From positions 5,580,001 to 5,644,000 of the forward strand of contig CM069154.1 of the NCBI GenBank assembly GCA_035221665.1: a stretch of DNA of 64,000 nucleotides. The letters run 5' to 3'. Position 1 is the first letter of the stretch; the number at the start of each line of letters is the position of its first letter. Below the pieces are notes generated by a model. It searched no databases. It saw only the letters and a program-made list of their open reading frames with translations, and was not told where the DNA came from. Source of the stretch: Okamejei kenojei. Taxonomy: Eukaryota. The position numbers and the translations under genes were made by a program. Positions 1,917 to 59,600 of the stretch are shown in pieces.

Positions 1917-2073
1917 AAAGTATTTACAAGCAAACATACTGACTTTTACTATTTTTAGAGACCCAACATGGAGTCTCAACACTACCAGCAGCCTTGGATT
2001 TCGCAAAGCAGCTCGAGTCTTGAAAAGTATCTACAAGCAAACATACTGACTTTTTCTACTTTTAGAGACCCAA
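1881..2073 (+). repeat. ~107-bp-period tandem duplication covering the ORF1 stop codon
   Basis: gcagccttggatttcgcaaagcag...ttagagacccaa starts at 1881 and again at 1988. Confidence 0.85.
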
Positions 2074-9023: not shown

Positions 9024-9786
9024 TCATGTGTTAGGGGAGGAATGAGGTCATTTTGTCTACTCCGCCATTCAATCATGGCTGATCTATCTCTCCCTCTCAA
9101 CCCCATTTTCTTCCCTTCTCCCCATATCGCTTGACACCCATACTAATCGAGAACCTGTGAATCCTAAAAATACCCAGTGACTTGGCCCTCATTGGAAACA
9201 CGGTAAAAGCTTTTCCCTGTACGTCGGTACAGAACGACAACAATAAACTGAGCTCATGAATCACCAAAGTTTGTGAGACACAAGAATTGCAGGTGCTGGA
9301 ATCTTGAGCAAAACACAAAGTGCTGGAGTAACTCAGCAGGTCCGGCAGCATCTGTGGAAGGAATGAACGGACGATGTATAGGGTTCGGACCCTTCCTTCA
9401 GATGATGTGTGTGTGTGGGTGTGACAGTAAACGGGCAGGGGGAGAGGGTGAGGGGGCGGTTCCACCCCTCCTGCCACAGTGAGGGGACGGCAGAGTTTCT
9501 GGTTCTGGAGCAATCGTCTTTGGGGAAATGAGCCGCCAGCAGCAGAACCGCCGGTCCCCGTTCACGAGGTCCCCCCCTCCCCGTCCCCGTCCCCCCCCCC
9601 CCCTCACACACACATACACACACACTGCTCCTTGGACAGTGGGCTCATGGACCCCTGTAAATGTGCTCCCCCCCCTTCACCCCGACCCCCGGCGATGTGG
9701 CACCGAGTCACCGTCAGGACCGAGGCCGGGAATTCCCAGGCTGGAATGTTCACATCTGGGAGAGTGAGGAGAGATCGTCAACGTAC

Positions 9787-18793: not shown

Positions 18794-19237
18794 GACAAGA
18801 ATAAACTAATAAACAAAGATAACAGTGCTCCAGCCAGCCTCGCAATGGGCCGTCGAACTAGAGTCTCTAACCTGCCTAAATGGAAATAACCCTGAAACAA
18901 AACACTCAGGTCAGCCCTTATCCATCCCAATTCAATATTAATCGACAAATGTAGGTAATAATACACAAAGTTTTATGCCATGTGGCCAGGCCTCCTGCAG
19001 CTCACACCAGCAACCTGCTCACGAGTCAGGGTCGACGAAGAGAGAGAGATTTCTGGGAGCTTCTGGTATTTAAGGTTCCGATGAGTCACCCATCACCTGA
19101 CACAGCTTGGCCAATCGGGTACAGGAGCCCTTAACACCTTGATTCCGACTTCCAGCCACGGGGCCTGCACTCAGGAGAGAAACAAAAGAGTTAAGTACAT
19201 AGCATTCACCAGAGGGGGGGGGGGGAAGTACCTAACA
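18794..19237 (-). mobile_element. Truncated copy of the solo LTR (poly(A)/U5 end missing)
   Basis: Matches 32691-33148; ends ...cctaaca followed by acaag. Confidence 0.8.
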
Positions 19238-19242
19238 ACAAG

Positions 19243-19418
19243 TATAAGGAAGGTAGGTTTTGCAGAGATCATCAGAATCGATGACTGCTTCCAAATGATG
19301 TCCATTAATACTTTCAAACATGCTGATAAAATAAAACAAACGGAAAGTGTTTACATAAAGTATTTCACAAATTCAGGCCAAACCAATGCTCTACGAAGAT
19401 GATATCAATAGGTCTTGA
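19243..19418 (+). pseudogene. Orphan 3' end of a receptor paralogue: last 10 nt of the TM exon plus the cytoplasmic exon (19377-19418)
   Basis: tataaggaag|gtaggt ... ttcag|AKPMLYEDDINRS*, identical to 33154-33331. Confidence 0.55.
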
Positions 19419-19465
19419 CAAGATGTTTGTGTGCAGAATGAACTGAAGTGCTTGATGTAAATGTT

Positions 19466-19837
19466 GTAGAGCCCTGTCTAGCTCTCTCTTGAAAGCATCC
19501 AGAGCACCTGCCTCCACCGCCCTCTGAGGCAGAAAATTCCACAGACTCACCACTCTCTGTGAGAAAAAGTGTTTCCTCGTTTCCGTTCTAAATGGCTTAC
19601 TCCTTATTCTTAAACTGTGGCTCCTGGTTCTGGACTCCCCCAACATCGGGAACATGTTTCCTGCCTCTAGCGTATCCAAGCCCTTAACAATCTTATATGT
19701 TTCAATGAGATATCTTCTCATCCTTCTCAACTCCAGAGTGTACAAGTCCAGCTGCTCCATTCTCTCAGCATATGACAATCCCGCCATCCCGGGAATTAAC
19801 CTTGTAAACCTACGCTGCATTCCCTCAATAGCAAGAA
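19466..19837 (-). mobile_element. CR1 fragment (paralogue at ~33380-33752)
   Basis: QRRFTRLIPGMAGLSYAERMEQL...ESRTRSHSLRIR. Confidence 0.85.
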
Positions 19838-21679
19838 TCTATTCACTCAGTAAAGGTGCCATTTAAACAATGTTGCTAGCCTTCATATTTTGCTGAGCAG
19901 TTTTCAAGTCAAGTCTGGCTTATTCTTATATGCACGTATGGTGAGGTGCAGGTACAATGAAAATCACGCTTGTGGCAACATCACAGGCACATACACGTGG
20001 ACACACAAAAATATAAATGATACATAGGGTGTACGTGTGTACAGCAGTGGAGTTGCTGCCTTCATTTCAGCGCCAGAGACGCGATTTTGATCCTGACTAC
20101 GGATGCTGTCTGTACGGAGTTTGCATGTTCTCCCCATGACCAATTTTCTCTGAGATCTTTGGTTTCTTCCCACACACCAAAGACGTGCAGGTTTGTAGGT
20201 TAATTGCCTTCGGTAAAACTGTAAATTGACCCTAGTGTGTGCAGGATAGTGCTGGTGTGCGGGTGGGATCGCTGGTTGGCGTGAACTATGTGGGCCAAAG
20301 GTCCTGTTTCTATGCTGTATCTCTAAACTAAACTAAACTCAACTAAGACGTCCAATTCCACTGAAGAAAAGGTCACCATATCTCTCAAGCTAATTGGCAC
20401 TTTACTCAAAGCAATGGGTTCCACCTGACAATCTTGTTCTCTTTATTCACTGCATGTGAAAACAGCTGAGACTTAATTTTATTTCCTTGCCTCAATATAA
20501 CTTGAATAATCTTATGAATGAATGATGAATGAATGAATAGGTTTATATGAATGAATAGGTTTATTGGCCAAGTATTCACATACAAGGAATTTGCCTTGGT
20601 GCTCCGTTCGCAAGTACAATATGACATACAGTGACATTAGGAATGACACCTAAAACATTAAACATTAACAATAAAATATACTTTTATAACAGAACCAATG
20701 ACAATTACACTATCTCCAATTACAAGATTGATATCAACAGTACTCAAAACAAATATAGTGCAAGGTATATTCTTCTCATAACTTTTTTTATGCGCTGGAA
20801 CTGAATCCATGTCGAGGACATTTGGTCGATTTTGTTTTGTTAAATGCACGCGTCAAGAGTGCTTGATTGTCATATTTACCGACAAGGGAGCAATATAACG
20901 CTTTGTTTCAGGAGCACAACGAGTCTGCAGCTTTAGAGAGTTATACAGCACGAAACGCACCCTTCAGCCCAACTTGTCCATGTCGACCAAGATGCCCCAT
21001 CTACTCTAGTTCCTCCTGCCAGCGTTTGGTCCATTTCCTTCTAAACCAGTCCTATTCATGTAACTGTCCAAAAGCCTTTAAAATGTTTTTGTAGCACCTG
21101 CCTCAACTACCTCATCAGTTAGCTCATTCCATACACCCACAACTCACTGTGTAAAAACATGATGCCCCTCAGGATCCTATTAAATCTTTTCGCTTTCACC
21201 TGAAGCCTTGTCCCCGAGTCTTGATTCCCCTTTGCTAGGTAAGAGACTTGTTTCCCTTGTTACCCTTGTTTCCCTTTCCCGAACTCTGTTTGAAGAAAGG
21301 TCTCGACTCAAAACATCACCTATTCCTTTACTCTAGAGATGCTGCCTGACCCGATGAGTAACTCTAGGTTTTTGTGTCTATCTTCGGTTTAAACGAGCAA
21401 CACATATCCTATCTATTCCCCTCATTGTGCTTGTAAACACAATGCACACAGTTAATATATAATGTACAAAAATTAATTAGTTAATAAGTCCAATAAGGGC
21501 AAAAAATAACTGATGTCTTTAGTGCAACCAAAGACTGTCCATACTTGATAGTTGAGGTTAGTGTGCAGTGTTCAAAAGCCTAATTTTTGCTGCTGAGAAG
21601 CTGTTCTTGAACCTGGAGGTCACCGTTTTCAGGCTCCTCAACCTTCTTCCCAATGGCAGGAGTGAAACGAGAGCGTGGT

Positions 21680-22553
21680 CAGAGTGTCATAGAGCCATAG
21701 AGTGATACAGTGTGGAAACAGGCCCTTCGGCCCAACTTGCCCACACCCGCCAACAATGTCCCAGGTACACTAGTCCCACTTGCCTGTGCTTGGTCCATAT
21801 CTCTCCAAATGTGTCCTATCCATGTATCTGTCCAACTGTTTCCTAAATGATGGGATAGTCCCAGCCTCAATTACCTCCTCTGGCATCTTGTTCCATACAC
21901 CCACCACCCTTTGTGTGGAAAAAGATACCCCTCAGATTCCTATTAAATCTTTTCCCCTTCACCTTGAACCTATGTCCTCTGGTCCTCGATTCCCCTACTC
22001 TGGGCAAAAGACTTTGTACATCCACCCAACCTATTCCTTTCATGATCTTATACACCTCTTTCAGATCACCCCTTATCCTCCTGGGCTCGATGGAATAGAG
22101 ATCCTGCCTAATCAACCTCACCCTATAGCTCACACACTCTAGTCCTGGCAACATCCTCGTAAATCTTTTCGGAACCCTTTCAAGCTTGACAGTATCTTTC
22201 CTATATCATGGTGCCCAGAACTGAACACAATATTCTAAATGCGGTCTCACCATCATCTTAGACAACAGCAACATGACCTCCGAACTTCTATTCTCAATAT
22301 TCTGACTGATGAAGGCCAAAGTGCCAAAAGTCTTTTTGACCGTTTTATCTACCTGTGACTCAACCTTCAAGGAATCGTGCACCTGTACTCCTAGATCCCT
22401 CTGCTCTACAACACTACCCAGAGGCCTGCCATTTACTGTGTAGGTCCTGGCCTTGTTTGACGTCCCAAAATGCAACACCTCACACTTCTCTGTATTAAAT
22501 TCCATCAACCAATGCTCCGCCCACCAGGCCAATCGATCCAGATCCGGCTGCAA
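21680..22553 (-). mobile_element. CR1 3' fragment (paralogue at ~35779-36652)
   Basis: DLDRLAWWAEHWLMEFNTEKCEVLHFG, VRPHLEYCVQFW, ESRTRGHRFKVKG. Confidence 0.88.
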
Positions 22554-22800
22554 TCAAAGGGGTTATGGGGAGAAGGCAGGAGAATGGGGTTAGGAGGGAG
22601 AGATAGATGAGCCATGAATGAATGGCAGGGTAGACTTGATGGGTCGTATCACTTATGACCTGATGAGCGTATTACCAAATATTCCTCATTCGTGCCAGGT
22701 TTGTGACTCTTTTCACCATTTTCATTACTCTATAAACATTAATTTATGTTTGAAATGTGCTGAGAAGATTTGAAATTCGAGAGTTAACCTGCAAGATCAT

Positions 22801-22915
22801 TGTGGTTTCATACACAAGGTCTTGCTGACCTCTTCCTCATTTATGTTCCTCGTAATGTTTCTACTTAAACGTTATTTTGCAATGAAGAGGAAGAGCTGAG
22901 TGACTTATGAGTGAC
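22801..22915. promoter_or_regulatory. Putative myeloid enhancer motif cluster (duplicated at ~36898-37012)
   Basis: RUNX TGTGGTTT, two PU.1-like GAGGAAG, C/EBP half-site TTGCAAT and two tgagtgac AP-1-like sites within 115 bp. Confidence 0.4.
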
Positions 22916-24243
22916 AATAAACTTAACTAGCTCACTAACTAACAAAAACCTTCAAAATGTAAACTAACAACTAGTGCTAAAAATATTTTTGATATAGTGT
23001 AGTCCTTGTGCAAAGTGCAAATATAAGCTTGAATGTTATCATGGACAAAAGAGGGATTGGAGGGGATGACTGCGGTGAAAAAGCTCCTTTATTATGTTGG
23101 CTGCTTTCTTGAGGCAGGGTGGCACAGTGACACAGCGGTGGAGTTGCTGCCAGACGCCTGGGACAATCCTGACTACGGAGATTGTACGTTCTCCCTGTGA
23201 CCGCGTGGTTTTTCTCTGGGTGCTCTGGTTTCCTCCCACATTCCAAAGATGTGCAGGTTTGTAGGTTAATTGGCTTCTGTAATTTGTACCCAGTGTGCAC
23301 GATAGAACTAGTGTATGAGTGATTGCTGGTCAGAGCGAACTTAGTGGGGCAAAGGGCATGTTTCCATGCTGTGTCTCTAAACTACACTAAACACGACAGG
23401 AACAAGCCCTCAGGCCCACAATGTCCGTGCCGAACATAATGCCAGGAACCAGGCCATCTGATAGATGAACTGAGGCCCAGGCCAGTTTCAATTTTAGAAT
23501 TTCAAGCAGAAGCCCCTCAATTTTAGAGGCCCCCAAATCAAGATCCCTTTGAAGCTACAGGCATGAGGCCCATGCCAAATGGCACTTGTTGCCCCCCCTC
23601 TGATAGTGCTTGCCCTGAACAAACCCTTATCTGCCTGCACATAATCCATATCACTCCAGCCCTGCATATCCCTGCACTTATCTAAAAGTCTCTTACATCG
23701 CACTCTCGTGTTCATTTCCAATAGGTTTGAAGAAGCTGTTTGTGAAACAGGTGGAGTATAATTTCAAGCTTTTATATCTTCTGCCTTGATGGGAGAGGGG
23801 AGAAGAGGGGACGGCTGGGGTGTAAATGGTCCTTAATTATGTTGTCTGCTTTCTTGAGGCATCGTGAGGTATAGATGGCTCAATGGTGGGATACGATGCA
23901 TCTATAGAATCTATAACATAGATAGGTGATGTTTCGGGTCGGGGTCCTTCTTCAGACCCGTCAAAATGTAGAAACAAGAAACCAAAGATACTGGTTTACA
24001 CAAAAGACACAAAGTGCTGGAGTAACTCAGTGGGTTAGACAGCATGCCTGGAGATCAAATAGAAAAAAATTAACTGCAAAAGCTTGTTTACAAAAAGAGC
24101 AAGCAGTTGTGTTTGCCTCACCACATCCACACTTTATAACATTAACAAACAATTGTTCCTTCCTATTTTTTCTAAGTTGCTTCATACGTTTATTGTTTGG
24201 CCAATAAAATTTAATAATAAAAAATGTAACACATTACATTATG

Positions 24244-24518
24244 TTTAAGAAAGAACTGCAGATGCTGGCAAAAGCATAGGTAGACAAAAATGCTGGAGAA
24301 ACTCAGCGGGTGAGGCAGCATCTATGGAGCGAAGGAATAGGTGATGTTTCGGGTCGAGACCCTTCTTCAGACTGATGTGGAGGTGGGTGGGCGGGGCGGG
24401 AAGAAGAAAGGAAGAGGCGGAGACAGTAGGCTGTGGGAGAGCTGGGAAGGGGAGGGGAAGAAGGGAGAAATCAAGGACTACCTGAAATTGGAGAAGTCAA
24501 TGTTCATACCGCTGGGGT
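24244..24518 (-). mobile_element. Penelope 3' end/pLTR with hammerhead motif
   Basis: Minus strand PSGMNIDFSNFR*, then a pyrimidine-rich UTR and CTGAAGAagggtctcgacccGAAACATC. Confidence 0.75.
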
Positions 24519-25400: not shown

Positions 25401-26469
25401 GTGGAACTGCAACCACCCCCAGAGACCCAGGTTCGATTCTGACCTCCGGCGCTATCAGTGTGGAGTTTGCACGTTCTCCCTGTGACCGTGTGGGTCTCCT
25501 CTGGGTGCTCCGGCTTCCTTCCACATCCCAAAGACGTGTGGCTCTGTAGGTTAATTGCACTTGTCGAATTGTGGCTCATGTCGAATTGCACTCAATGTGT
25601 AGGGAGTGCATGCAAACATGGTGTAAGGTGGGACTAGTGTGAACGGGTGATCGATGGTCAGCGTGGACTCGGTGGGCCGAACGGTCTGTTTCCATGCTGT
25701 ATCTCTAACCAGCATGTGATTCCATGCCAAATTCTAACTGACAATGGTGCTGTGGAGAACCTTGAGACTTTTCCATCACCTTTAAGGCACTGTTGAAATG
25801 CAAGTTGCTGTTGAATTATTGCAAAGACGTGCTCAATAAATCTTTAGTCAGAGGGCGATGAATCTGTGGAATTCAATAAAGAAGGAGGAGGATTATGAGA
25901 ATGATCCTCGGAATGAGTGGGTTAACATATGTGTGGAGAAGATGCTTCCACTAGTGGGATAATATAGGGCCAGAGTTCATAGCTTCAGAATTAAAGAGCG
26001 TTGCTTTAGGAAGAAAATTAGGAGGAATTGCTAAAGCAAGAGGGTAGTAAATTTGAGGAATTAATTGCACAAAAGGTTGTGGAGACCAAGTCAATGGATA
26101 TTTTAAGGCAGAGATAGCACGGGTGTCAGGGGTTATGGGGTGAAGGCAGGAGAATAGGGTTAGGAGGGAGAGATAGATCAGCCATGATTGAATGGCAGAG
26201 TAGACTTGATGGGCCGAATGGCCCAATTCTGCTTCTATCCCTTATGAGCATGAACATGAAGTCGATGTGCCAAATGGTCTAATTCTGCTCCTATGACTTA
26301 TGAACTAATGATTGCAAGTGAAAAGCAGGTGATGCTGAATTTTACTTCGGAGTCACGTGAGTGACTACGTGAATAGAAGCCCGTACAGCCGTTGGTGCGT
26401 CATGACGTCAGACGCTGGTGCAGTCGGCCGGTTGGAGCAGCAGCGCTCCTCCGAGCGGTAAGTTTAAAC

Positions 26470-26602
26470 AGGTTACACGAAAAGCTGGAGAATTCAGCGG
26501 GTGCAGCAGCATCTAAGGAGCGAAGGAGATGGGCGACGTTTCGGGTCGAGACCCTTCTTCAGACTTCACCCTCCATTCTCCAGCATCTGCAGTTTCGTTA
26601 AC
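26470..26602 (-). mobile_element. 133-bp Penelope-derived mini-insertion with an intact hammerhead motif (26535-26562) inside the DIRS
   Basis: 10-bp TSD aagtttaaac at 26460-26469 and 26603-26612. CTGAAGAagggtctcgacccGAAACGTC on the minus strand. Confidence 0.75.
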
Positions 26603-26992
26603 AAGTTTAAACGGAGGTAAGGTTTGTTGAAATACTTTACCACAGGTCATTTTCTGCGACGGTTGGGAGTAGATATGTTGCAGAAAGGGAAGAAGGTGTC
26701 GGCGAGGCGCTCCGGGGGTAGAAAGAAGAGTGACCAGGAGAGTGTTGAGGATGGAGGCCCGTCTGGTACACCTGGTCCGGTGCTGGCTACACAGCCAGTG
26801 GTTGCGGACCCACTGCCGGGGGGCAGTGGAGGCTTGCACAGTAGGGTGGAAGGCCACTGGCAAGTCTCTGTGGCCCGTAGATGAGTCGGGCCTGGAGGTT
26901 ATACCCTCCATAGGAGAGTCCGTTTGCTCACGGCTCTCCCACGTCGAGATTCTATTACAAAAGAATGCTCGACAGGGACAACTCCATGAGGT

Positions 26993-27190
26993 GGAGTGGT
27001 GCCCAAGCCAGGCTGATGGAGAGCTTGTGCTAGCAGCACCTGTTTCAGGGCTGCAGAACTATCCTGCCTGTGAGGAGGATGTTCCAGCTCCTTGAGGAGG
27101 AGTGGTGCCCAAGCCAGGCTGATGGAGAGCTTGTGCTAGCAGCACCTGTTTCAGGGCTGCAGAACTATCCTGCCTGTGAGGAGGATGTTC
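26993..27190 (+). repeat. 106-bp-period tandem duplication in the DIRS gag-like region
   Basis: ggagtggtgcccaagcc...gaggaggatgttc repeated exactly at 26993 and 27099. Confidence 0.9.
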
Positions 27191-30100
27191 TATCAGGGCC
27201 GTTTGCTGACACTGTTTCTATGCTGGGGGAGAGCAAGGTGTTCGGTTGGAGGTAATTCCGAACATTGCTGGGAAGTTTGCTGAGTGTAGAGAGGCAGGAA
27301 AGGCGATTGATGTAGAATTGGCCGAAGCCATTCAGTATATGCTAAAAAATCCCACCAGTTACAGGAGCTAGCTATGGATGAAGTAGCAAAAAACTATAAA
27401 GCTCCTGTTAATTGTGATCTCCTGAAGGTACCGGTGGTTAATCACCAAATTTGCATAGATGGGTTTGCCTGCTAGGGCCCAGGAGATGAAGTTTTAAAAA
27501 AGTGCTTAAACTGTTGTAAGCAGGTATTACAGCTGTGGTGAAAGATATTAATACAAATGATATGGTTGAAGCACACCAGGATGAACTGGGACTCCTTTGT
27601 AATGCATTTTGAAATTAATAATGTCGGGAGGGCCGCTATTAGGCCAGTGCTAACCCGAATTTGGCGAATTGTGCAAACCGACCAGTGTACCACCACGAAA
27701 TCTGTTGTTTGGTGGTAACCTTGCAAAAAGGGTCAAAGACTGTTATGAGGTTGTTAACCATGGCCCTCATTAAGCCAGCTGGAAGCAAGGCAAAAAAGGT
27801 TCTCTACAAGAAGTCGAGGACAACAAGGCCGCAAGGAAAGATGCTGGTAAGGAATATAACATTTGACAGACGATGAATTAACTGATGTTCCTGTTCAAAT
27901 TGGGGAAGGTTAAAATTGTTCTCAAATAATGGCAGCAGTTGACATCAGATTTGTTCATACTTAGTGTAATTGAAGGGGTGAAAAATTGGATTTTACTATG
28001 ACAGTCCACCTAATCAACATTTTCCTAGTCGTAAACTTATTTTTCAGATGAGGAAAATGTGCTTATTCAAGCAGAGATTCAGTCGTTACATAAGAAGGGG
28101 TAATTGAGCCTTCTGTCTATCAAAGTCAACAATTTCTGTCAAGTATATTTCCCAGATCTAAAAAGACTGGGGGATGTAGAATTATTCTGGATTTATCGAA
28201 TTTGAACAAATTTGTTTGTTATAGGCATTTCAAAATGGAGAACTTTACCACGGGCAAACATCTAGTGTCCAAAGGGTATTATATGGCAACCATTGATTTA
28301 AAGAATGCGTATTACGCAGTGTCTATTCATGGTGATGATAGAAGATATTTGAAATTTATTTGGATGACTGAGCTGTGGCAATTCAGGACATTGCCGAATG
28401 GATTAACTTCAGCTCCTAGATTATTTACTAAATTGGTAAAACCTGTGTTAGCATTGCTTAGAGCTCAGGGGCATGTGGTAATGGCCTATTTAGATGATAT
28501 TCTGATTGTTGGAAAGACTCATGCTGAAACTCAATCATCAGTTTCAGTTGTTAAAATCATTTTTGAACAAATGGGATTTGTTATTCACCCAGATAAATCT
28601 AAATTATCACCAGTCGAAATTATTGATTATCTGGGATTTACCATTAATTCCAATCACATGTTGGTAACTTTGCCCAGGGATAAATTGAATCAGTTAATTG
28701 AGGACTGTGTTAATCTCGTTGGAGAACAACGGCCTTTGATTAGACAAGTAGCCAGTTTTATTGGGAAGTTGTTGCAAGCCTTTCCAGCTGTGCAGTATTG
28801 TCCTCTGCATTATCAACAATTACAACCATCAAAGGAACAGGCCACTGAGAATACAAAGGGGCTATTTTTGATAGGCCTATGCAGTTGTCAGTTGGGGCGA
28901 TTGCTGACATACAATGGTGGATAGTACATGTTTCAAAAAATTTAAGGAAGGTTTTTGTGGAATCACCGTCACTGATATTACAGACTGATGTGAGTGCACT
29001 GGGTTGGGGTGCAACAGATATGTCTTCTAGTTGTGGAGGCAGATGGAATGTGGATGAGACATCGCTTCCTCAATTAAGAGGGATTGATTATTTAGAGTTG
29101 TTGGGCACCTGGTATGGGCTCAAAGCTTATTGTTCTACAAGGAGGGATCTGCATGTGCAGCTCAGATTCACAACACCACAGCAGTGGCATATGTAAACCA
29201 CATGGGTGGAGTTAAGTCACAGTCTTGTGATAGACTGGCTAACCAGATTTTGAGCTGGTGTATTGACCAAAAATATCTGGCTTTCAGCACTTTATTTGCC
29301 AGGAAGAGGTCACGTCCGTTTAATGACAACATTGAATGGATGTTAAATCAGGATGTGTTTAACCAAATGATTGATCAGTATGCATTGCCAGATATTGACT
29401 TGTTTGCATCTCGATTAAATCATCAGTTACCTAGATATGTTTCATGGTAACCAGATACTGGGCAGTAGCAGTGGATGCATTTTCGCTGCATTGGGGGAGG
29501 AATGTCTGTGTATGTATTTCCTTCATTCTGTCTCATCAGCAGATGTTTGCAAAAGATCAAGGAGGACTCCGCTTCAGGGGTATTGGTAGTGCCAGATTGG
29601 CCTACACGAGCATGGTTTCCCGTTGTATTACAAATGGCTAGGGAGCCTTACATGCTTATGCCCAAGAATAAAATTCTACTGGTAAATCCAGTCACTGGGG
29701 ATCAACATCCTTTATAGGATCGTATTGATCTGTTAATTTGCAGATTTTAAGGAGGCCATACCTGGGGAGAGGACTGTCTCATCGGACGGTGATGTTCTCA
29801 CGTCGGCCTGCAGGGATAGTACACAGCAGCAATATATCACCTATATAAGGAAGTGGGAGCAATTCTGCCTACAGCAGGATATTGTATATCACACGGCAGG
29901 GATCACGGATGTATTGGAGTTTGTCAACTCTTTATTTTGACCAAAAAATTAAGTTACAGTGTAATTAATTCAGCCAGAAGTGCTCTGTCTTCTTATTTAC
30001 CTATGAATGCAGAATTGCATACAGTAGGGACACATCCGTTAGTTCACGATTCATGAAGGGAGTTTTCAATTCTAATCCTCCTAAACTCAGGTATGCCGGT

Positions 30101-31122
30101 ATTTGGAATGTGAGTGAGGTTTTTATGCTTCTTCGCCAGTGGGCTCCGGTTACAAGCCTATCTATAGCCAAATTAACTACGAAGGTGGTCATGCTTCTGG
30201 TGTTGGTTTCAGCCCAACGTGTACAAACATTGCAAAAGCTACGGCTAGATTGAATGCATGTGTCGGCTGATGCCATTATATTTTATGTCTATGATTTGCT
30301 TAAACATAATAAAAGAGGCATGACAGGATGTAAGATTGTGTTTTCAGCATACCCCGCAGATGATCGCTTCTGTATAGTCTCACATTTATCTCGTTACATT
30401 GAGATTACTAAACCTCTGAGAGGAACAGAGTTGGCTTTGTTTATTAGTCACAAAAAACCACACAGTAAGGTGTCGGTGCAAACGATTTCAAGGTCCTCGC
30501 GGCCGCAGGATGGTCCAGTGAGCTAACTTTTCAGAGGTTTTGTCACAAGCCCGATTTCAAGGCTCGGGGTGTTTGCTGATTCTGGTGTCAGTACTGTTAC
30601 ATTTTTCCCCTGAGTTAGAGGGGTTTTGGTATGATTTGTTTGTAAATAAACTGTTATTTCATTTAACAAATGTATTACTGATGCATGATTGATTGTTAAC
30701 GACTTTTGAGTCAATCCAGGCAGTGTGAACGTCGGATTTGAGTCTGCGGCGTGAATTCACAGTGCTTTGAAGTCTTCACGTAGTCACTCATGTGACTCCG
30801 AAGTAAAATAGTAAGATTAAACGAGAACTACCAGTTTGAAGTCTGATCTTTATTTTATGAGGAGTCGAGTTGAGGGACTACGTGCCCTCCGTTCCCACCC
30901 TCATAGATCTCATCAGGTAGTTCTAGTTTTATCATCTTACCGTTATACTTCGGTCATTGTTAGCTGTGAATTCATTCCGCTGCTTTGAAGATTGACGCAC
31001 CAACGGCTGTACGGGCTTCTATTCACGTAGTCCCTCAACTCGACTCCTCATAAAATAAAGATCAAACTTCAAACTGGTAAGTTCTCGTTTAATCTTACTA
31101 TTCTATTTCCTTGACCCAACAG

Positions 31123-31243
31123 AACCTAAAAAGACTGGTAGCACTTCTAAGAATGAACGAATGATGACTACACCATTTGCAAGTACAGAAAAAAGATCCA
31201 ATGATAGTCAAAATGACACAACCCGATTCACTTGCACTGAATG
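31123..31243 (+). CDS. Ser/Thr-rich stalk exon of a CD300/MDIR-like receptor
   Basis: Acceptor ttctatttccttgacccaacag. 121 nt, phase 1 in and 2 out. (E)PKKTGSTSKNERMMTTPFASTEKRSNDSQNDTTRFTCTE with two N-glycosylation sequons. Donor gtacaa is weak. Confidence 0.65.
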
Positions 31244-32485
31244 GTACAATTATGTTATTACTGCTGTTGTGATTGGCTCTACCTCCTTATGAGAATTAAT
31301 TGGAAGAGAATTTCCTCTTTCATTTGCTAGTGTTAAGTGCATCAGAGTATTCAATGTTGAGATCAGAGTGTGCAATAGAATTGAAAGGAACGATCTAAGA
31401 TCCAGCATACACTCAATGGGCCAAATGGACTCTAGCTATTTTTTTGGTTTTTTAGCTTTAGAGAAACAGCACGGAAACAGGCCCTTCCACCCTACAAGTC
31501 CATGACAGCCATAGATCAGTCTGAAGAAGTGTCTCAACACGACAAATGTCATCTAGTCCTTCTCTCCAGAGGTGCTGTCTGACCCGCTGAGTTACTCCAG
31601 CTTTTTGTGTCTATCTTTGATCCCCCCGTTAACACTAGCTCTTTGTTGTACCACTTTATTGTTCACTCCCTACACATGAAGGGCAATTTTACAGATGCCA
31701 ATTAACCTCCAAACCTGCATGCCTTTAGGATGTGAGAGCAAACCAGAGCACCTGCAGGAGACCCACACGGTCATAGGGAGAATGTACAAATCCATGCAGA
31801 TAACACCCTGAGTTCAGGATCGAACCCAGGTCTCTGGCGCCTTAAGAGAGCAGCTCTATCAAATGTGCCAATGTCACAAAAAAAAAGATGAGTAAGTATT
31901 TGTTGATTCATCTCTTGATTTTGTACACCTCCATAAGATCACCCCTCGTCCTCTCCAAGGAATAATGATCTAGCTTGCTCAACCTTTCCCAATAGCTCAG
32001 GCCCCCGAGTCCCAGAAACATCCTCGTAAATCTTCTCTGCACCCTTTCCAGCTTGACAAAATCTTTCCTGTAACATGGTGACCAGAAATGCACACAATAC
32101 CCTAAATGTGATGAGATTCCTGGATTATGCAGAATTACATCTGGTCACATAGGATTTAAGACACAGAAAAGATCAACTAAGCTGGTCCATGCTGGTGTTT
32201 ACATACCACTCTTCACTTCTCCCATCTTTTCGCATCTAACTTTATCAACGCTAGACGCAAAATGCTGGAGTAACTCAGCGAGTCAGGCAGCATCTCTGAA
32301 GAACATGGATAGGTGAGGTTTTGGGTTGAGATCCTGGACGGTGGAATTTCCCAGCTGAACTCCCTGGGCTCTGTTGCTGTACCCTGCTCCACGCAGAGAT
32401 TTCACAGCAATCAGGATATGAATGTTTCCAACACGAACTAGTCTGTTTCCTCCCACTGATTCTGTATCTTTTTCCCTTTGGTCAG

Positions 32486-33163
32486 TTTCATGACATGGAA
32501 GGTGGGATGCTGGCTATACTTCGCTCTGCTTGGGATCTGCAGTATCTCAGTCTCATTGTTCACAAGTGTTACGACTCCCGAATGCAGGTACTTCAGAGCC
32601 GCGTAACATAGTCAAAAACCAGGCTCAAGTTCAAGAAAATAGTATTTTATTTTGTTAAAACCCAAACCTGATTCAAACAACCCAGTCAAGGACAAGATTA
32701 AACTAATAAACAAAGATAACAGTGCTCCAGCCAGCCTCGCAATGGGCCGTCGAACTCGAGTCTCTAACCTGCCTAAATGGAAATAACCCTGAAACAAAAT
32801 ACACGAAAACACTCAGGTCAGCCCTTATCTGTCCCAATTCAATATTAATTGACAAATGTAGGTAATAATACACAAAGTTTTATGCCATGTGGCCAGGCCT
32901 CCTGCAGCTCACACCAGCAACCTGCTCACGAGTCAGGGTCGACGAAGAGAGAGAGATTTATGGGAGCTTCTGGTATTTAGGCTTCCGATGAGACACCCAT
33001 CACCTGACGCAGCTTGGCCAATCGGGTACAGGAACCCTTAACACCTTGATTCCGACTCCCAGCCACGGGGCCTGCACTCAGGAGAGAAACAAAAAGAGTT
33101 AAGTACATAGCATTCACCAGAGGGGGGGGGGGGGGGAAGTACCTAACAACAAGTATAAGGAAG
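32486..33163 (+). CDS. Transmembrane exon (32486-32566 plus 33154-33163) interrupted by a solo LTR
   Basis: Branch-like ctgat, polypyrimidine tract and cag acceptor. Removing the LTR and one TSD gives 91 nt, phase 2 in and 0 out: FMTWKVGCWLYFALLGICSISVSLFTSIRK, donor gtaggt. Confidence 0.75.
32567..33148 (-). mobile_element. Solo LTR, 582 bp
   Basis: TGTTA...TAACA termini and 5-bp TSD acaag (32562-32566, 33149-33153). CCAAT box, TATA-like box (~32975) and minus-strand AATAAA (~32650) give the orientation. Confidence 0.88.
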
Positions 33164-33289
33164 GTAGGTTTTTGCAGAGATCATCAGAATCGCTGACTGC
33201 TTCCAAATGATGTCCATTAATATTTTTCAAACATGCTGATAAAATAAAACAAACGGAAAGTGTTTACATAATGTATTTCACAAATTCAG

Positions 33290-33331
33290 GCCAAACCAAT
33301 GCTCTACGAAGATGATATCAATAGGTCTTGA
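33290..33331 (+). CDS. Short terminal cytoplasmic exon with a Tyr in acidic context
   Basis: ttcag| phase 0, AKPMLYEDDINRS*. Candidate AATAAA at 33841-33846. Confidence 0.5.
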   Translation, partial: AKPMLYEDDINRS

Positions 33332-36300
33332 CAAGATGTTTGTGTGCAGAATGAACTGAAGTGCTTGATGTAAATGTTGTAGAGCCCTGTCTAGCTCTCT
33401 CTTGAAAGCATCCAGAGCACCTGCCTCCACCACCGCCCTCTGAGGCAGAGAATTCCACAGACTCACCACTCTCTGTGAGAAAAAGTGTTTCCTCGGCTCC
33501 GTTATAAATGACTTACTCCTTATTCTTAAACTGTGGCCCCTGGTTCTGGACTCCCCCAACATCGGTAACATGTTTCCTGCCTCTAGCGTTTCCAAGCCCT
33601 TAACAATCTTATATGTTTCAATGAGATATCTTCTCATCCTTCTGACCTCCAGAGTGTACAAGCCCAGCTGCTCCATTCTCTCAGCATATGACAATCCCGC
33701 CATCCCGGGAATTAACCTTGTAAACCTACGCTGCATTCCCTCAATTGCAAGAATCTATTCACTCAGTAAAGGTGCCATTTAAACAATGTTGCTAGCCTTC
33801 ATAGCAATGATTTATATTATTTTGTATTGCAGTCATGAGGAATAAATTGTATTCAATCCTGGAAATGCCTCATTGTTTTAACTGTGAAGAATATTTAGAA
33901 GAGGGAAACTATAACCTATGACATCCCATCAGATCAATTGTTCTGGAAATACTTTTTCTCATGAGAACATCATTGAAATATACTTTGCTGAGCAGTTTTC
34001 AAGTCAAGTCTGGCTTATTCTTATATGCACGTATGGTGAGGTGCAGGTACAATGAAAATCACGCTTGTGGCAACATCACAGGCACATACACGTAGACACA
34101 CAAAAATATAAATGATACATAGGGTGTACGTGTGTACAGCAGTGGAGTTGCTGCCTTCATTTCAGCGCCAGAGACGCGATTTCGATCCTGACTACGGATG
34201 CTGTCTGTACGGAGTTTGCATGTTCTCCCCATGACCAAGTGGCTTTTCTCTGAGATCTTTGGTTTCTTCCCACACTCCAAGGACGTGCAGGTTTGTTGGT
34301 TAATTGCCTTCGGTAAAACTGTAAATTGACCCTAGTGTGTGCAGGATAGTGCTGGTGTGCGGGTGGGATCGCTGGTTGGCGTGAACTATGTGGGCCAAAG
34401 GTCCTGTTTCTATGCTGTATCTCTAAACTAAACTAAACTCAACTAAGACGTCCAATTCCACTGAAGAAAAGGTCACCATATCTCTCAAGCTAATTGGCAC
34501 TTTACTCAAAGCAATGGGTTCCACCTGACAATCTTGTTCTCTTTATTCACTGCATGTGAAAACAGCTGAGACTTAATTTTATTTCCTTGCCTCAATATAA
34601 CTTGAATAATCTTATGAATGAATGATGAATGAATGAATAGGTTTATGAATGAATAGGTTTATTGGCCAAGTATTCACATACAAGGAATTTGCCTTGGTGC
34701 TCCGCTCGCAAGTACAATATGACATACAGTGACATTAGGAATGACACCTAAAACATTAAACATTAACAATAAAATATACTTTTATAACAGAACCAATGAC
34801 AATCACACTATCTCCAATTACAAGATTGATATCAACAGTACTCAAAACGAATATAGTGCAAGGTATATTCTTCTCATAACTTTTTTTATGCACTGGAACT
34901 GAATCCATGTCGAGGACATTTGGTTGATTTTGTTTTGTTAAACGCACGCGTCAAGAGTGCATGATTGTCATATTTACCGACAAGGGAGCAATATAACGCT
35001 TTGTTTCAGTAGCACAACGAGTCTGCAGATTTAGAGAGTTATGCAGCATGGAAACAGACCCTTCAGCCCAACTTGTCCATGTCGACCAAGATGCCTCATC
35101 TACTCTAGTTCCTCCTGCCAGCGTTTGGTCCATTTCCTTCTAAACCAGTCCTATTCATGTAACTGTCCAAAAGCCTTTAAAATGTTTTTGTAGCACCTGC
35201 CTCAACTACCTCATCAGTTAGCTCATTCCATACACCCACAACTCACTGTGTAAAAAAATGATGCTCCTCAGGATCCTATTAAATCTTTTCGCTTTCACCT
35301 GAAGCCTTGTCCCCGAGTCTTGATTCCCCTACGCTAGGTAAGAGACTTGTTTCCCTTGTTACCCTTGTTTCCCTTTCCCGAACTCTGTTTGAAGAAAGGT
35401 CTCGACTGAAAACATCACCTATTCCTTTACTCTAGAGATGCTGCCTGACCCGATGAGTAACTCTAGGTTTTTGTGTCTATCTTTGGTTTGAGCGAGCAAC
35501 ACATATCCTATCTATTCCCCTCATTGTGCTTGTAAACACAATGCACACAGTTAATATATAACGTACAAAAATGAATTAGTTAATAAGTCCAATAAGGACA
35601 AAAAATAACTGATGTCTTTAGTGCAACCAAAGACTGTCCATACTTGATAGTTGAGGTTAGTGTGCAGTGTTCCAAAGCCTAATTGTTGCTGCTGAGAAGC
35701 TGTTCTTGAACCTGGAGGTCACCGTTTTCAGGCTCCTCAACCTTCTTCCCAATGGCAGGAGTGAAACGAGAGCGTGGTCAGAGTGTCATAGAGTCATAGA
35801 GTGATACAGTGTGGAAACAGGCCCTTCGGCCCAACTCGCCCACACCCGCCAACAATGTCCCAGGTACACTAGTCTCACTTGCCTGTGCTTGGCCCATATC
35901 TCTCCAAATGTGTCCTATCCATGTATCTGTCCAACTGTTTCCTAAACGATGAGATAGTCCCAGCCTCAACTACCTCCTCTGGCATCTTGTTCCATACACC
36001 CACCACCCTTTGTGTGGAAAAAGTTACCCCTCAGATTCCTATTAAATCTTTTCCCCTTCATCTTGAACCTATGTCCTCTGGTCCTTGATTCCCCTACTCT
36101 GGGCAAAAGACTTTGTACATCCACCCAACCTATTCCTTTCATGATCTTATACACCTCTTTCAGATCACCCCTTATCCTCCTGGGCTCGATGAAATAGAGA
36201 TCCTGCCTAATCAACCTCACCCTTTAGCTCACACACTCTAGTCCTGGCAACATCCTCGTAAATCTTTTCGGAACCCTTTCAAGCTTGACAGTATCTTTCC

Positions 36301-38439
36301 TATATCATGGTGCCCAGAACTGAACACAATATTCTAAATGCGGTCTCACCATCATCTTAGACAACAGCAACATGACCTCCAAACTTCTACTCTCAATACT
36401 CTGACTGATGAAGGCCAAAGTGGCAAAAGCCTTTTTGACCGTTTTATCTACCTGTGACTCAGCCTTCAAGGAATCATGCACCTGTACTCCTAGATCCCTC
36501 TGCTCTACAACTACCCAGAGGCCTGCCATTTACTGTGTAGGTCCTGCCCTTGTTTGACATCCCAAAATGCAACACCTCACACTTCTCTGTATTACATTCC
36601 ATCAACCAATGCTCTGCCCACCAGGGCAATCGATCCAGATCCGGCTGCAATCAAAGGGGTTATGGGGAGAAGGCAGGAGAATGGGGTTAGGAGGGAGAGA
36701 TAGATGAGCCATGAATGAATGGCAGGGTAGACTTGATGGGCCGTATCACTTATGACCTGATGAGCGTATTACCAAATATTCCTCATTCGTGCCAGGTTTT
36801 TGACTCTTTTCACCATTTTCATTACTCTATGAACATTATTTTATGTTTGAAATGTGCTGAGAAAATTTGAAACTCGTGAGTTAATCTGCAAGATCATTGT
36901 GGTTTCATACACAATGTCTTGCTGACTTCTTCCTCATTTATGTTCCTCGTAACATTTCTACTTAAACGTTATTTTGCAATGAAGAGGAAGAGCTGAGTGA
37001 CTTATGAGTGACAATAAACTTAACTAGCTAACTAACTAACAAAAACCTTCAAAATGTAAACTAACAATTAGTGCTAAAAATATTTTTGATATAGTCTAGT
37101 CCTTGTGCAAAGTGCAAATATAAGCTTGATTGTTATCATGGACAAAAGAGGGATTGGAGGGGATGGCTGTGGTGAAAAAGCTCCTTTATTATGTTGGCTG
37201 GTTTCTTGAGGCAGGGTGGCACAGTGACACAGCGGTGGAGTTGCTGCCAGACGCCTGGGACAATCCTGACTACGGAGATTGTACGTTCTCCCTGTGACCG
37301 CGTGGGTTTTCTCTGGGTGCTCTGGTTTCCTCCCACATTCCAAAGACGTGCAGGTTTGTAGGTTAATTGGCTTCTGTAAATTGTACCCAGTGTGCACGAT
37401 AGAACTAGTGTATGGGTGATTGCTGGTCAGAGCGAACTTAGTAGGGCAAAGGGCATGTTTCCAAGCTGTATCTCTAAACTAAACTAAACATGACAGGAAC
37501 AAGCCCTCGGGCCCACAATGTCCGTGCCGAACATAATGCCAGGAACCAGGCCATCTCATAGATCAACTGAGGCCCAGGCCAATTTCAATTTCAGAATTTC
37601 AAGCAGAAGCCCCTCAATTTTAGAGGCCCCCAAATCAAGATCCCTTTGAAGCTACAGACATGAGGCCCATGCCAAATGGCACTCGTTGCCCCCCCCTCTG
37701 ATAGTGCTTGCCCTGAACAAACCCTTATCTGCCTGCACATAATCCATATCTCTCCAGCCCTGCATATCCATGTGCTTATCTAAAAGTCTCTTACATCACA
37801 CTCTCGTGTTCATTTCCAATAGGTTTGAAGAAGCAGTTTGTGAAACAGGTGGAGTATAATTTCAAGCTTTTATATCTTCTGCCTTGATGGGAGAGGGGAG
37901 AAGAGGGGACGGCTGGGGTGTAAAAGGTCCTTAATTATGTTGTCTGCTTTCATGAGGCATCGTGAGGTATAGATGGCTCAATGGTGGGATACGGTGCATC
38001 TATAGAATCTATAACATAGATGGGTGATGTTTCGGGTCGGGGTCCTTCTTCAGACCCGTCAAAATGTAGAAACAAGAAACTAAAGTACTGGTTTACACAA
38101 AAGACACAAAGTGCTGGAGTAACTCAGTGGGTTAGACAGCATGCCTGGAGAACAAATAGAAAAAAAAAAACTGCAAAAGCATGTTTACAAAAAGAGCAAG
38201 CAGTTGTGTTTGCCTCACCACATCCACACTTTATAACATTAACAAACAATTGTTCCTTCCTATTTTTTCTAAGTTGCTTCATACGTTTATTGTTTGGCCA
38301 ATAAAATTTAATAATAAAAAATGTAACACATTACATTATGTTTAAGAAAGAACTGCAGATGCTGGCAAAAGCATAGGTAGACAAAAATGCTGGAGAAACT
38401 CAGCGGGTGAGGCAGCATCTATGGAGCGAAGGAATAGGT

Positions 38440-38467
38440 GACGTTTCGGGTCGAGACCCTTCTTCAG
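38440..38467 (-). ncRNA. Minimal hammerhead ribozyme motif (best-preserved copy)
   Basis: gt-CTGAAGA-a-gggt(ctcg)accc-GAAACGTC-ac. Confidence 0.65.
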
Positions 38468-39860
38468 ACTTATTTTATGGTCAGTATTGCAAGTGGCAAT
38501 ATAAACTGGAAGGTACAAAAACAAAGCTTCTGCAGAATGTTTAATAGCCAAGGTCCTTGAAAGTTCCTGAGCAGATTGGGAAATTGATTGAAAAAAATGT
38601 TTATGAAACATGTAAGAGCCAAAAAACTGCTCAAGGCACTCCATGGGTTAAGCAGAGTCTACAAGCAGAAATACATTGTCAACATTTTGGGTCTCGACTG
38701 CACCAGGATACCTTCTTGCTTCAGATTCCAGAATCTACAGTCTTGTGTACCTCCATTTATAAAATATGAGTTTGGTCACAATTGTGGGCACCACTTTAGG
38801 AAGGTTGTGAAATTGTTAGAGAGGTATAGAAGGGATTTAGAAAAAGTAACTTAGGAATGAAGAACTTTAGTCTGGTGGATTATTGATCAGCGAACAGCGA
38901 ACAATTGATCTCCTGAGAACAGAGAAGGTTGCAAAGTGATCTGATGGAGATGTTTAAAATCAAGGAAAAATACAAATTCCAAATGGTAGGCACAGTGGCA
39001 TAGCGGTAGAGTTGCTGCCTTACAGCTACAGAGACCCAGGTTTGATCCTGGCAATGGGTGCTGTCTGCACTGAGTTTGTATGTTGTCCCTCTGACCACGT
39101 TGGTTTCCTCCCATATTCCAAAGACGTGCAGGTTTGTAGGTTTTAATGTAACCCCAAAGACCATATCTTTATATTGTTAGTTGGTTACATGGTTAAATCG
39201 TTGGTTATATGGTTAACTATGTTACAGGTGACAATAAACTAAACTAACATACTAGGTTAGTTGGCTTCTGTAAATTGGCTCTAGTGTGTAAGATAGACCT
39301 AGTGTAGGGGTGGTTGTTGGTCGGCGCTGACTCGATGGGCCAAAGGGCCTGTTTCTGCGCTGTATCTCTAAACGTAAAAGTCCAAGTAGAACTGAAACTG
39401 ACACAAAAATTAGTTTCTAGCTTAGCATAGATTCTAATAAATATATAAGGTTTGTGTACAACACATGGCCTGGAGAGAATGAATGTGAAGAGGATGTTTC
39501 CACTTGAAGATTTAGGACCAGAGGCAACAGCCCCCGAATAAAAGGACATACATTTAGAAAGGAGATGAGGAGGAATTTCTTTAGTCAGAGGTTGGTGAAT
39601 CTGTGGAATTCATTGCCACAGATGGTTGTGAAGGCCAAACCAATGAATATTTTTAATGCGGAAATTGATAGATTCTTGATTAGTACGGATGCCAGAAGTT
39701 ATGGGAAGAAGGGAGGAGAAAAAGGTTGAGAGGGAAAGATAGGTCAGCCATGATTGAATGGTGGAGTAGGCTGGATGGGCCGAATGGACTAATTCTGCTC
39801 CTATCACTTATGAACTTATGAACATGAGTTTAAATATGTTCCTATGTGGTCCTTTTCTAG

Positions 39861-56653: not shown

Positions 56654-59600
56654 TTGAAATAAGTTTATTCATGGATAACCCCTTGAGATGAACAGTCATC
56701 TCGTTTTCGAGGGGGTCCAACATAGAACATACATCACAAGACATAACATACATGGATGCTCTCATTGACCCACCTACCCACACACCAATCCCAAAACCCC
56801 TCCATCCCCACTTGTTATAGTTTTATGACAATTGTTAATTGACTTTACATATCCAATAATAATAAGTTATGTGTTACAGCATAATGTTGATGCATAATAC
56901 CATATACCACCTCTCATACATCGTACGTTAGGTGGTACGTTTCCGAGGGGGTCCAACATTATTACATGATATATTATTTCATAGTATTGTGACATAATAC
57001 AATATGACCTTGTTACACTATGCAATACAATAATACATAAGTGTAATGGCAATGCGAGCGTGGGGGGATAACCAGTTTAGAGTTTCGTACATAGAACAGT
57101 GGCGAGTTAGATATGGACACCTTAAAATAAATCTGCAGAGACTATTATAAACTACATTCAGGGGTTCAAGATGTGTGTCAAATGTATTCTGATAGACAAT
57201 ATCAGCATAATCCAGTGTTGGTAATAGTAGTTGAGAGACAATTCTTTTTCTCATCTGAAAGGTGAAACAATTTATATGGCGGTAAAGAATAGCTAGATTA
57301 CAGCTAAGTTTTTTAGTAATCGTCTCACTATGCTGCGTAAATGAAAGCGTTGGGTCGAGCCAAACACCAAGATATTTGAAGTTCAATACTTGTTCTAATG
57401 GTGATCCTTTATTAAATGATATAGTCAGATCTACACAATTACCAAGGCCTTGTCTGGTACCAAATAACATACTGCATGATTTATTTTTATTTAAAATTAA
57501 TTTGTTAAATAATAGCCATTTCTGAACAGAAGTAAGATCTGATTGAAGGGATCTTTCAATTTCAGACTTGTTAGTACTAGATGTATATAGCACTGTATCA
57601 TCAGCATATAGTTGTGTTTGACAGTCAGAACAAATATTAGGGAGGTCGTTTATGAAAATAGAGAAAAGGAGTGGTTCCAAAGACGAACCTTCCATTAAAG
57701 GTAACACATTTGCGTCTGTTATGAAGGTATGAGTTAAACCACAGTAGATTGTTTTGAGAAAGACCAATTGTGTAACGTTTATCAAGCAGTAGGTAGTGGT
57801 CAACAAAATGAAAGGCCTTGGTTAAATCAAGAAAGATGGCACCGGTGAGTTTACCATCCTCAGAAGCAGTGAACACATCGCTGGTGAGTTTTAACAGAGC
57901 TGTAGTTGTGGAGTGATTAGGTCTGAACCCACACTGGCATGGAGATAGAATGTTGAAAGTTGAGACATAATGTGATAGCTGGTTGAACACTAGTTTCTCA
58001 AGGATTTTAGCCACCGAGTTGATAATTGAGATGGGGCGGTAATTGTTAATAGTAAGATTAAACGAGAACTTACCAGTTCGAAGTTTGATCGTTATGTTAT
58101 GAGGAGTAACGACGAGGGATTACGTGAAGAAGCCCCGCCTGGCGCTGGAACGGCATACTTCAAAGCAGCGGCATGAAAAACACAGAACATAATAGCCGGA
58201 GTAAGATAGTAAGGCTCAACATAGATTTAGAACTACCAGATGATCATTTATTTTATGAGGGTCGGGAGTGGAGGGCACGTAATCCCTCATCGTTACTCCT
58301 CATAAAATAACGATCAGACTTCGAACTGGTAAGTTCTCGTTTAATCTTACTATTTTACTTCGGAGTCACGTGAGTGACTACGTGAAGATTTTGAAGCTTC
58401 TGTGTTTTTTATGTCGTAGAGTCATTCCATACGACAGTCCGGCTAGGTCAACACATACATGAGTAAATAACCTTTTACCAGATCAGTTTTAGTTTATTTT
58501 CATAAATCTTTTAATGATAAAAGAACAAATAATAACCCCCTTTTTTACATCTGGGGAAAATCATTACAAAGTGATAAAATATATGTGATAACATAATTGA
58601 TAATATAAATCGATAGTGAAACAAAGCAGGTGATTATAGTGAACCCAACACCGCGTGTCCAAAGCCTGTCATTGTGAGAACAGGTTTATCGTAGAACTTT
58701 GAACCCTGCGGTTTCTAAAATGTGTTCGAGTGGCACGTCCTGTAACTTCGCCGCGGACGTAGCTGCTGCCCTGTGGAGTGAGATTTAAACACATCAGTGT
58801 CTACTCCTGCTAAAAGTAACACCCGTTTTAACCACCTTGAAATTGTTTGTACTGATGCTTTTGTGTGTGGTTTCTTATGCGTAATCATTAACGCTTTTTC
58901 ATCACCTCGAAGAGTCTTGGTAACTTTTATATATTGAGTCAAGTGTCTAACTACACACAACGTTGGATCAATAGGGTAAGCTTGAAACATTACCTTCGCT
59001 CCAGTTCTCCCTGGTCTGCTTTGTTTGATCAGATCGTAAACGTAAAACACAATGTTATCTGAAGCCACATGCATACAATCTAAACATAGCATTTGTAATG
59101 TTTGCACTCTTTGTGCTGATACCAACGCCATTAACATTACTAATTTAAATGTTAACTTTTCCAATGATATAACTTCGCTTGGAGTCCATTGCCTAAGCAA
59201 AGTAAGTACAATGCTGACATCCCAAATTTCTGTATATCTTGGTTTGATGGATTTTTGTTAAAGATTCCTTTCATAAATCTGGATATTAATGGATGAGATC
59301 CAATTGATTCATGGTCAGAAATTTGTCCTAAATAGGATGATAAAGCACTACGCGCACTATTAATGGCACTATAACTTAAGTGCTGCTCAAAATGCAACTC
59401 AGCAAGGAACTCCAATATGTTTGAAATGTTCACAGTATGATAAGATATATTTGATTGTCTACAAAAAACTTCCCATTTCTTTATATGTATCATATATTGT
59501 CTCTGAGTGCTATCTCGCCATGATGAGACTATGACATCCATAGTTCTATCCGACAATCCAAGCCCTTGTAGTGGTCTGGTCAAAACCTGCAGATTAACAA

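What the first reader, a model, noticed from the sequence alone, without database searches (positions are those of the whole stretch)
31123..33846. Cryptic plus-strand stalk-TM-tail exon chain of an activating-type receptor
Three short exons invisible to the ORF track have compatible phases (1>2>0): an S/T-rich glycosylatable stalk, TM FMTWKVGCWLYFALLGICSISVSLF, and tail AKPMLYEDDINRS*, followed by AATAAA. A short ITIM-less tail and a basic residue near the TM start (K; GCW could derive from GRW by CpG decay) suggest pairing with an ITAM adaptor (inference). The stalk accepts a phase-1 V exon, but none was found upstream on this strand.
Basis: partly seen in the sequence, partly recalled or inferred. 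Interest (0 to 1): 0.7.

Follow-up and report, generated by a model that had tools for sequence, protein, structure and literature searches.

The report
Broken skate immune-receptor gene fragment
Two of the three proposed exons are real pieces of a known skate immune-receptor gene family, but this copy has a jumping-gene remnant inserted in its membrane exon, has lost the family's conserved arginine and has no front half nearby, so it is likely a dead duplicate and ordinary.

Summary
The stalk exon (31123-31243) and TM exon (from 32486) are real. They match skate MDIR/CD300/pIgR-like activating receptors: 87% over 31 aa and 22 of 26 aa to Amblyraja XP_032898776.1. The finding did not mention that the TM exon is split by a 582-bp high-copy insert (32567-33148; TG...CA ends, 5-bp target-site duplication, likely a solo LTR) that puts a stop at 32604. 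The Lys is not conserved (13 of 32). The proposed tail matches no relative's tail, and the AATAAA is at chance level. No leader, V or C2 exon of this subfamily lies in the window; a DIRS-like element ends about 13 nt before the stalk acceptor; a further-truncated duplicate lies 14 kb upstream. Verdict: likely a dead, 5'-truncated duplicate in a known receptor cluster. Small open case: sister copies that keep Arg might use the LTR as a new tail and poly(A) site.

The parts
31123..31243 (+). Stalk exon (S/T-rich, phase 1 to 2) of an MDIR/CD300-like receptor; weak-looking donor TG|GTACAA
   Evidence: 87% over 31 aa to P0016; local scores 134 (P0016) and 116 (P0063), next 53, among 77 proteins; splice ends
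32486..32566 (+). 5' part of the TM exon; holds the whole hydrophobic helix; codon 32508-32510 is TGC (Cys) where relatives have Arg
   Evidence: 22 of 26 aa to P0015 and P0016, 20 to P0063, 15 to MDIR5; Arg in 32 of 32; 32508 C in runs X6 and X2
32567..33148 (.). 582-bp insert, likely a solo LTR, probably minus-oriented (TATA-like sites at 32962 and 32884, AATAAA at 32651 on minus). Gives a read-through stop at 32604-32606 and plus-strand AATAAA at 32697 and 32705
   Evidence: 5-bp duplication at 32562-32566 and 33149-33153, TGTTA/TAACA ends; summed contig depth about 49,000-277,000 over it against about 210-520 on flanking single-copy bins in X2; absent from X6 contig 28; signals
33154..33163 (+). 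Stranded 3' end of the TM exon with donor AAG|GTAGGT (phase 0)
   Evidence: With the insert out, the exon ends in the same four residues as P0015, P0016 and P0063
33290..33331 (+).
   Evidence: No likeness to the tails of relatives
26339..31109 (+). DIRS-like retroelement (name from recalled anatomy) ending about 13 nt before the stalk acceptor AG; may have displaced the branch point (inferred)
18794..24373 (+). Duplicate of 32691-38470 (96-97% identical); starts inside the insert, so it has no stalk and no TM helix, and it lacks 33804-33979 with the AATAAA

Best explanation
This is likely a dead, front-truncated duplicate of an activating-type skate MDIR (CD300/pIgR-like) receptor gene: its stalk and membrane exons match that family, a 582-bp insert splits the membrane exon and adds a stop, the family's membrane arginine is replaced by cysteine, and no leader or Ig exon of its subfamily lies in the window. 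The intact parent (leader, V, with or without C2, stalk, TM, short tail) would signal through an ITAM adaptor bound at the N-terminal TM arginine, as FcalphaRI does with FcR-gamma (inferred from mammalian work, untested in skates). Likely order of events (inferred): LTR insertion, then duplication of the LTR-bearing segment, then the CpG change in this copy; the time of the DIRS-like insertion and of the loss of the 5' exons is not known.
For: Shown: homology of stalk and TM; insert with target-site duplication and in-frame stop; empty site in organism B, where one 493-nt contig lies on 32287-32567 and 33171-33368; the insert-to-exon junction is also in a contig of a second sample of organism A (X2 contig 21, 33123-33381), so it is not an assembly slip; TGC against CGC and Arg in 32 of 32 TM-matching proteins among 77 examined. 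No plus-strand hit for leader, V or C2 profiles (27, 113 and 66 sequences); the V profile does find both minus-strand V exons at over 100 bits. Those two V exons fall in another clade (100/99) than the V domains of P0015/P0016/P0063 (96/94). An opposite-strand gene starts at 16573, so only 14.5 kb, much of it duplicate and retroelement, is free upstream. No match to the tail of P0015/P0016 on the plus strand (best 30 of 66). The duplicate carries the insert's end, so the insert predates the duplication.
Against: The insert lies just after the hydrophobic helix, so read-through keeps the TM and only swaps the short tail; relatives P0063 and P0069 have almost no tail, so the insert alone need not be lethal. 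The stalk frame is open and its splice sites are present. No genome is held, so 5' exons more than 31 kb upstream, or a mis-joined cluster, cannot be excluded. In catfish IpLITR 2.6b, neutralising the TM lysine did not stop adaptor binding (PMC4810170, passages), so Arg>Cys may not abolish pairing. The leader and C2 profiles had no positive control inside the window. The 32 relatives include paralogues and isoforms from few species.
Confidence: 0.8

Rival explanations
1. LTR-capped living variant: full-length copies of this gene (sister copies, or this one with distant 5' exons) read through into the insert, end after a 13-residue insert-derived tail and polyadenylate at 32697/32705, giving a working activating receptor.
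For: TM helix intact before the insert; stop at 32604 and two plus-strand AATAAA 91-99 nt later. In X2 the one contig counted at 32508 has the Arg codon (depth 161) and a contig joining the insert's end to the exon's end has depth 180, against minor variants at about 31-89: a weak hint of several copies with both Arg and insert. The tool warns that depth is no copy number, and the two contigs are not linked.
Against: No protein with the insert-derived tail: 2 hits among 6 candidates and 2 hits in 1.84 billion representatives (P0016 over query 1-29 only, and P0078, an unrelated-looking 1027-aa protein). Both searches are weak for this, as they use cluster representatives. Both copies in the window lack their 5' exons, and the main one lacks Arg.
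Confidence: 0.1
2. Most of the insert is spliced out through cryptic sites (donor 32587, acceptor 33120), restoring the frame to the old donor at 33163 and a downstream tail.
For: The 32587>33121 join is in frame, and the G-run has 15 and 12 bases in the two copies, both multiples of three.
Against: One in three such joins is in frame by chance; the acceptor has few pyrimidines and another AG 10 nt before it; it would add 18 residues; no matching tail exon and no 5' exons.
Confidence: 0.03
3. One reading: a working stalk-TM-tail chain ending in the 33290 exon and the 33841 poly(A) site.
For: Phases fit once the insert is removed; the stretch 33171-33368 is kept next to the TM exon in organism B.
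Against: The insert is in the DNA. The two closest proteins, 22 of 26 aa identical in the TM, continue with a different tail; the proposed tail ranks as random; AATAAA at chance level.
Confidence: 0.02
4. The missing front half is an assembly effect in a multi-copy cluster; the gene is longer in the animal.
For: Recent 96-97% duplicate in the window and uneven contig depths in X2 point to a cluster that is hard to assemble.
Against: No N in the window; the upstream DIRS-like element is whole, with matching end repeats. The insert and the Cys codon would remain anyway.
Confidence: 0.05

Closest known systems
Amblyraja radiata XP_032898776.1 (P0016; labelled 'CXADR-like membrane protein', a V-C2-stalk-TM-short tail protein)
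   Same: Stalk 87% over 31 aa, TM 22 of 26 aa, same Cys at the stalk/TM join and same last four TM-exon residues.
   Different: It has leader, V, C2, the TM Arg and an 11-aa tail not found in the window; its stalk starts 6 aa shorter; no insert.
Rhinoraja longicauda 'CMRF35-like molecule 5' (P0063)
   Same: V joined directly to the same stalk type; TM 20 of 26 aa; ends right after the TM exon.
   Different: Has V and Arg; it is an annotation model, and its transcript support was not seen.
Modular domain immune-type receptors (MDIR5 = P0019, MDIR2 = P0039) of the clearnose skate
   Same: MDIR5 has the same TM type (15 of 26 aa, W-K-V-G-R-W, short tail); the V domains of the closest relatives share a 95/96 clade with MDIR2 and MDIR5.
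   Different: MDIR2 has a long tyrosine-motif tail and no such TM. The fragment has no Ig domain. The original paper (Cannon 2006, PMID 16738934) is not held; the family description is from passages of PMC3031540.
Mammalian FcR-gamma-coupled receptors such as FcalphaRI
   Same: [quoted passage not shown]
   Different: Likeness of mechanism only. The skate adaptor was not identified; PMC4016189 (2014, passages) found no FcR-gamma in the shark genomes it screened.

Membership tests
MDIR / CD300-pIgR-like receptors of cartilaginous fish | CD300/pIgR-type V domain, with or without C2 | tested here: not met
   None on the plus strand in 64 kb. Met by the closest whole relatives, so the claim is 'fragment derived from', not 'working member'.
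MDIR / CD300-pIgR-like receptors of cartilaginous fish | Stalk and TM homologous to family members | tested here: met
MDIR / CD300-pIgR-like receptors of cartilaginous fish | Location in a multigene cluster | tested here: met
   Leader and two V exons of a paralogue on minus (16573 to 9787) and a paralogous tail exon near 55431-55371. Synteny beyond the window could not be tested.
Activating (adaptor-coupled) Ig-family receptor | Basic residue at the conserved TM position | tested here: not met
   Cys where 32 of 32 have Arg; Lys three residues earlier is in 13 of 32.
Activating (adaptor-coupled) Ig-family receptor | Short tail without ITIM | tested here: inconclusive
   True of the closest relatives; the fragment's own tail exon was not found.
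Activating (adaptor-coupled) Ig-family receptor | Binds an ITAM adaptor | not testable with these tools
   Needs co-expression and pull-down; no skate adaptor was in hand.
Solo LTR | TG...CA ends, 4-6 bp target-site duplication, empty site elsewhere, high copy number | tested here: met
Solo LTR | Same sequence flanks a full LTR retroelement; family assignment | not testable with these tools
   No genome and no repeat library.
Pseudogene fragment | Disabling lesions against an intact relative | tested here: met
   Insert with stop, Arg>Cys, missing 5' exons.
Pseudogene fragment | No productive transcript | tested here: inconclusive
   No RNA holder on record; not evidence either way.

The most novel reading that the evidence does not exclude
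In this skate lineage a solo LTR landed exactly at the end of the membrane helix of an activating MDIR, and the gene was then amplified; copies that keep the arginine use the LTR as their cytoplasmic tail and poly(A) site, making an LTR-capped subfamily of working immune receptors.
Probability: 0.08. Interest if true: 0.5.

Novelty: new member of a known kind. Interest (0 to 1): 0.17.

Why it matters
As a dead fragment it matters little: it is one more case of turnover in a paired-receptor cluster, with a clean record of the lesions (empty site and Arg codon seen in a relative). It does show that the W-x-x-x-R-W arginine is invariant in the 32 elasmobranch MDIR-type proteins examined, which names the residue to mutate when the unknown skate adaptor is sought. 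If the LTR-capped reading were true, it would be a case of a retroelement end taken over as tail and terminator of an immune receptor subfamily.

Tried and rejected
Whole-genome look-up: none held. Pfam on the stalk and TM frames: 0 families. Hydropathy as evidence: rejected, 73 equal stretches by chance. The minus-strand V exons as the lost front half: rejected, other clade and 31-37% identity to the V of P0015/P0016. Tail search: direct scoring of 9 tails, a profile of 21 tails (best window hit 4.0 bits, none near 33290) and a degenerate DNA scan of 33164-55300 (best 25 of 33 letters) found nothing. The profile's leave-one-out control recovered 12 of 17 distinct tails and missed the P0015/P0016 type, so the direct scoring carries that case. 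The frame starting at 33288 has a faint likeness to family tails (rank 3 for one of 9 tails, 359 for P0016; 19 of 33 letters), but has no AG before it; left as a possible remnant. Expression: no RNA holder listed; two runs guessed as RNA (X16, X18) had no cover on the three exon bins; neither counts as evidence. The junction table was flooded by repeats (15 rows shown, 2215 not), so exon junctions could not be read, and most single-letter differences (245) were not shown, those in the tail among them. Earlier findings: nothing by place or by words. Papers: six searches (listings only, plus passages of four papers) showed no description of this locus; the library lacks most subscription papers, so this is weak. 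No supplements were read.

Full report
Setting. The window is skate-like DNA rich in repeats. Its two open V exons (minus strand; Pfam V-set E 2e-12 and 6e-13) match pIgR-like/CMRF35-like proteins of skates at 76-83% and of other rays and sharks at 56-59%. No whole genome is held.

Observation. The stalk exon 31123-31243 has AG/GT ends, 121 nt, 36% S/T and two sequons; the TM peptide and the tail frame read as quoted; AATAAA is at 33841. The reason is a 582-bp insert, 32567-33148, with TGTTA/TAACA ends and a 5-bp duplication at 32562-32566 and 33149-33153 (one search had the right end off by one). Without it the exon is 91 nt, phase 2 to 0.

Homology. A 40-aa frame over the TM exon found 2 proteins among 6 candidates: P0015 (unnamed Logan record on a 1028-nt contig; leader-V-other stalk-TM-tail in one frame, so probably a transcript, inferred) and P0016 (Amblyraja XP_032898776.1). 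P0016 matches the stalk at 87% over 31 aa and the TM at 82% and has the Cys that the phase-2 join predicts. Both end the TM exon with the four residues that the window gives once the insert is out. A search with P0016 gave 63 proteins among 639 candidates, among them MDIR5 and MDIR2 of the clearnose skate. These are not independent rows: many are paralogues or isoforms. P0063 joins V straight to this stalk type. MDIRs are described as CD300/TREM/pIgR-like multigene families with activating and inhibitory forms (PMC3031540, passages); the original paper was not held.

DNA from other samples. Of 24 runs listed, none is on record as RNA; 4 were laid. In X6 (organism B) one contig lies on 32287-32567 and again on 33171-33368 with 15 letters between: the empty site. 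It has C at 32508, which makes CGC, Arg. In X2 (organism A, a second sample) a contig joins the insert's end to the exon's end (33123-33381), and the one contig counted at 32508 has the Arg codon. Summed depth over the insert is hundreds of times that of its flanks. Depths on the unique parts of X2 (about 225-275, minor variants 31-89) hint weakly at several copies. The two runs guessed as RNA did not cover the exons; that is not evidence.

What is missing. tblastn with all 77 proteins and profiles for leader, V and C2 found nothing convincing on the plus strand beyond stalk and TM (other plus-strand hits were repeat-derived parts of two gene models and one weak hit at E 0.027). The minus-strand V exons belong to another clade (100/99) than those of P0015/P0016/P0063 (96/94), which sit with MDIR2 and MDIR5 (95/96) (40 V domains from the window and 25 chosen proteins, midpoint root). 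Upstream lie a DIRS-like element (26339-31109), a 96-97% duplicate of 32691-38470 at 18794-24373 that starts inside the insert, and the leader of an opposite-strand paralogue at 16573. The proposed tail does not resemble any of 9 tails tested, and the tail of P0015/P0016 has no match on the plus strand. The AATAAA is at chance level, behind a 374-bp repeat.

Mechanism. Shown: family origin of stalk and TM, the insert and its stop, Arg>Cys by a CpG transition, absence of 5' exons in the window, and insertion before duplication. Inferred: the parent signals through an ITAM adaptor at the N-terminal TM Arg, by analogy with FcalphaRI and FcR-gamma (PMC1440944, passages); this copy makes no working receptor. 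Against: a fish receptor kept adaptor binding after its TM Lys was neutralised (PMC4810170, passages); a 2014 survey found no FcR-gamma in sharks (PMC4016189, passages); and the insert spares the helix and offers a stop and two AATAAA, so it is not by itself fatal. A search of 1.84 billion representatives with the read-through frame gave 2 hits and none that extended a true match into the insert-derived part.

Verdict. Observation partly confirmed, interpretation partly supported. Likely a dead, 5'-truncated duplicate of an activating MDIR-type gene (0.8). New member of a known kind, interest 0.17. The LTR-capped living subfamily is not excluded (0.08; interest 0.5 if true). The names solo LTR, DIRS-like and LINE rest on anatomy and recalled knowledge, not on a repeat library.

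Noticed in passing
window 16573-16477, 11345-11022, 10113-9787 (minus): Leader and two tandem V exons of a pIgR-like/CMRF35-like paralogue with GT-AG sites. The 11345 exon has Phe in place of the first canonical Cys. No stalk or TM of that type was found in 1-9700, so the gene probably runs off the window or is cut.
   Followed up: partly
window about 55431-55371 (minus): Tail exon like that of P0013/P0004 (64% over 28 aa) with an AG acceptor; the frame runs on past the place where those proteins stop, and no matching TM exon was found in 55.5-64 kb. Another orphan piece, or a gene entering from the right.
   Followed up: partly
window 58048-62995 (minus) and 26339-31109 (plus): Two DIRS-like retroelements, about 64% identical over 2.4 kb inside and 80% over the end repeats; both have broken frames.
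   Followed up: partly
window 19239-19402: In the duplicate, read-through of the old TM donor stays open for about 50 codons; the main copy has one more T and closes. X2's major contig has the duplicate's letters at 33169 and 33272. Probably chance.
   Followed up: no
window 16919-16761 (minus): A stretch just upstream of the leader matches the C-terminus of gene model P0002 at 74%, which suggests that model has taken up repeat or flanking DNA.
   Followed up: no
window 26979-27190: A 106-bp direct tandem duplication (97%) inside the DIRS-like element.
   Followed up: no
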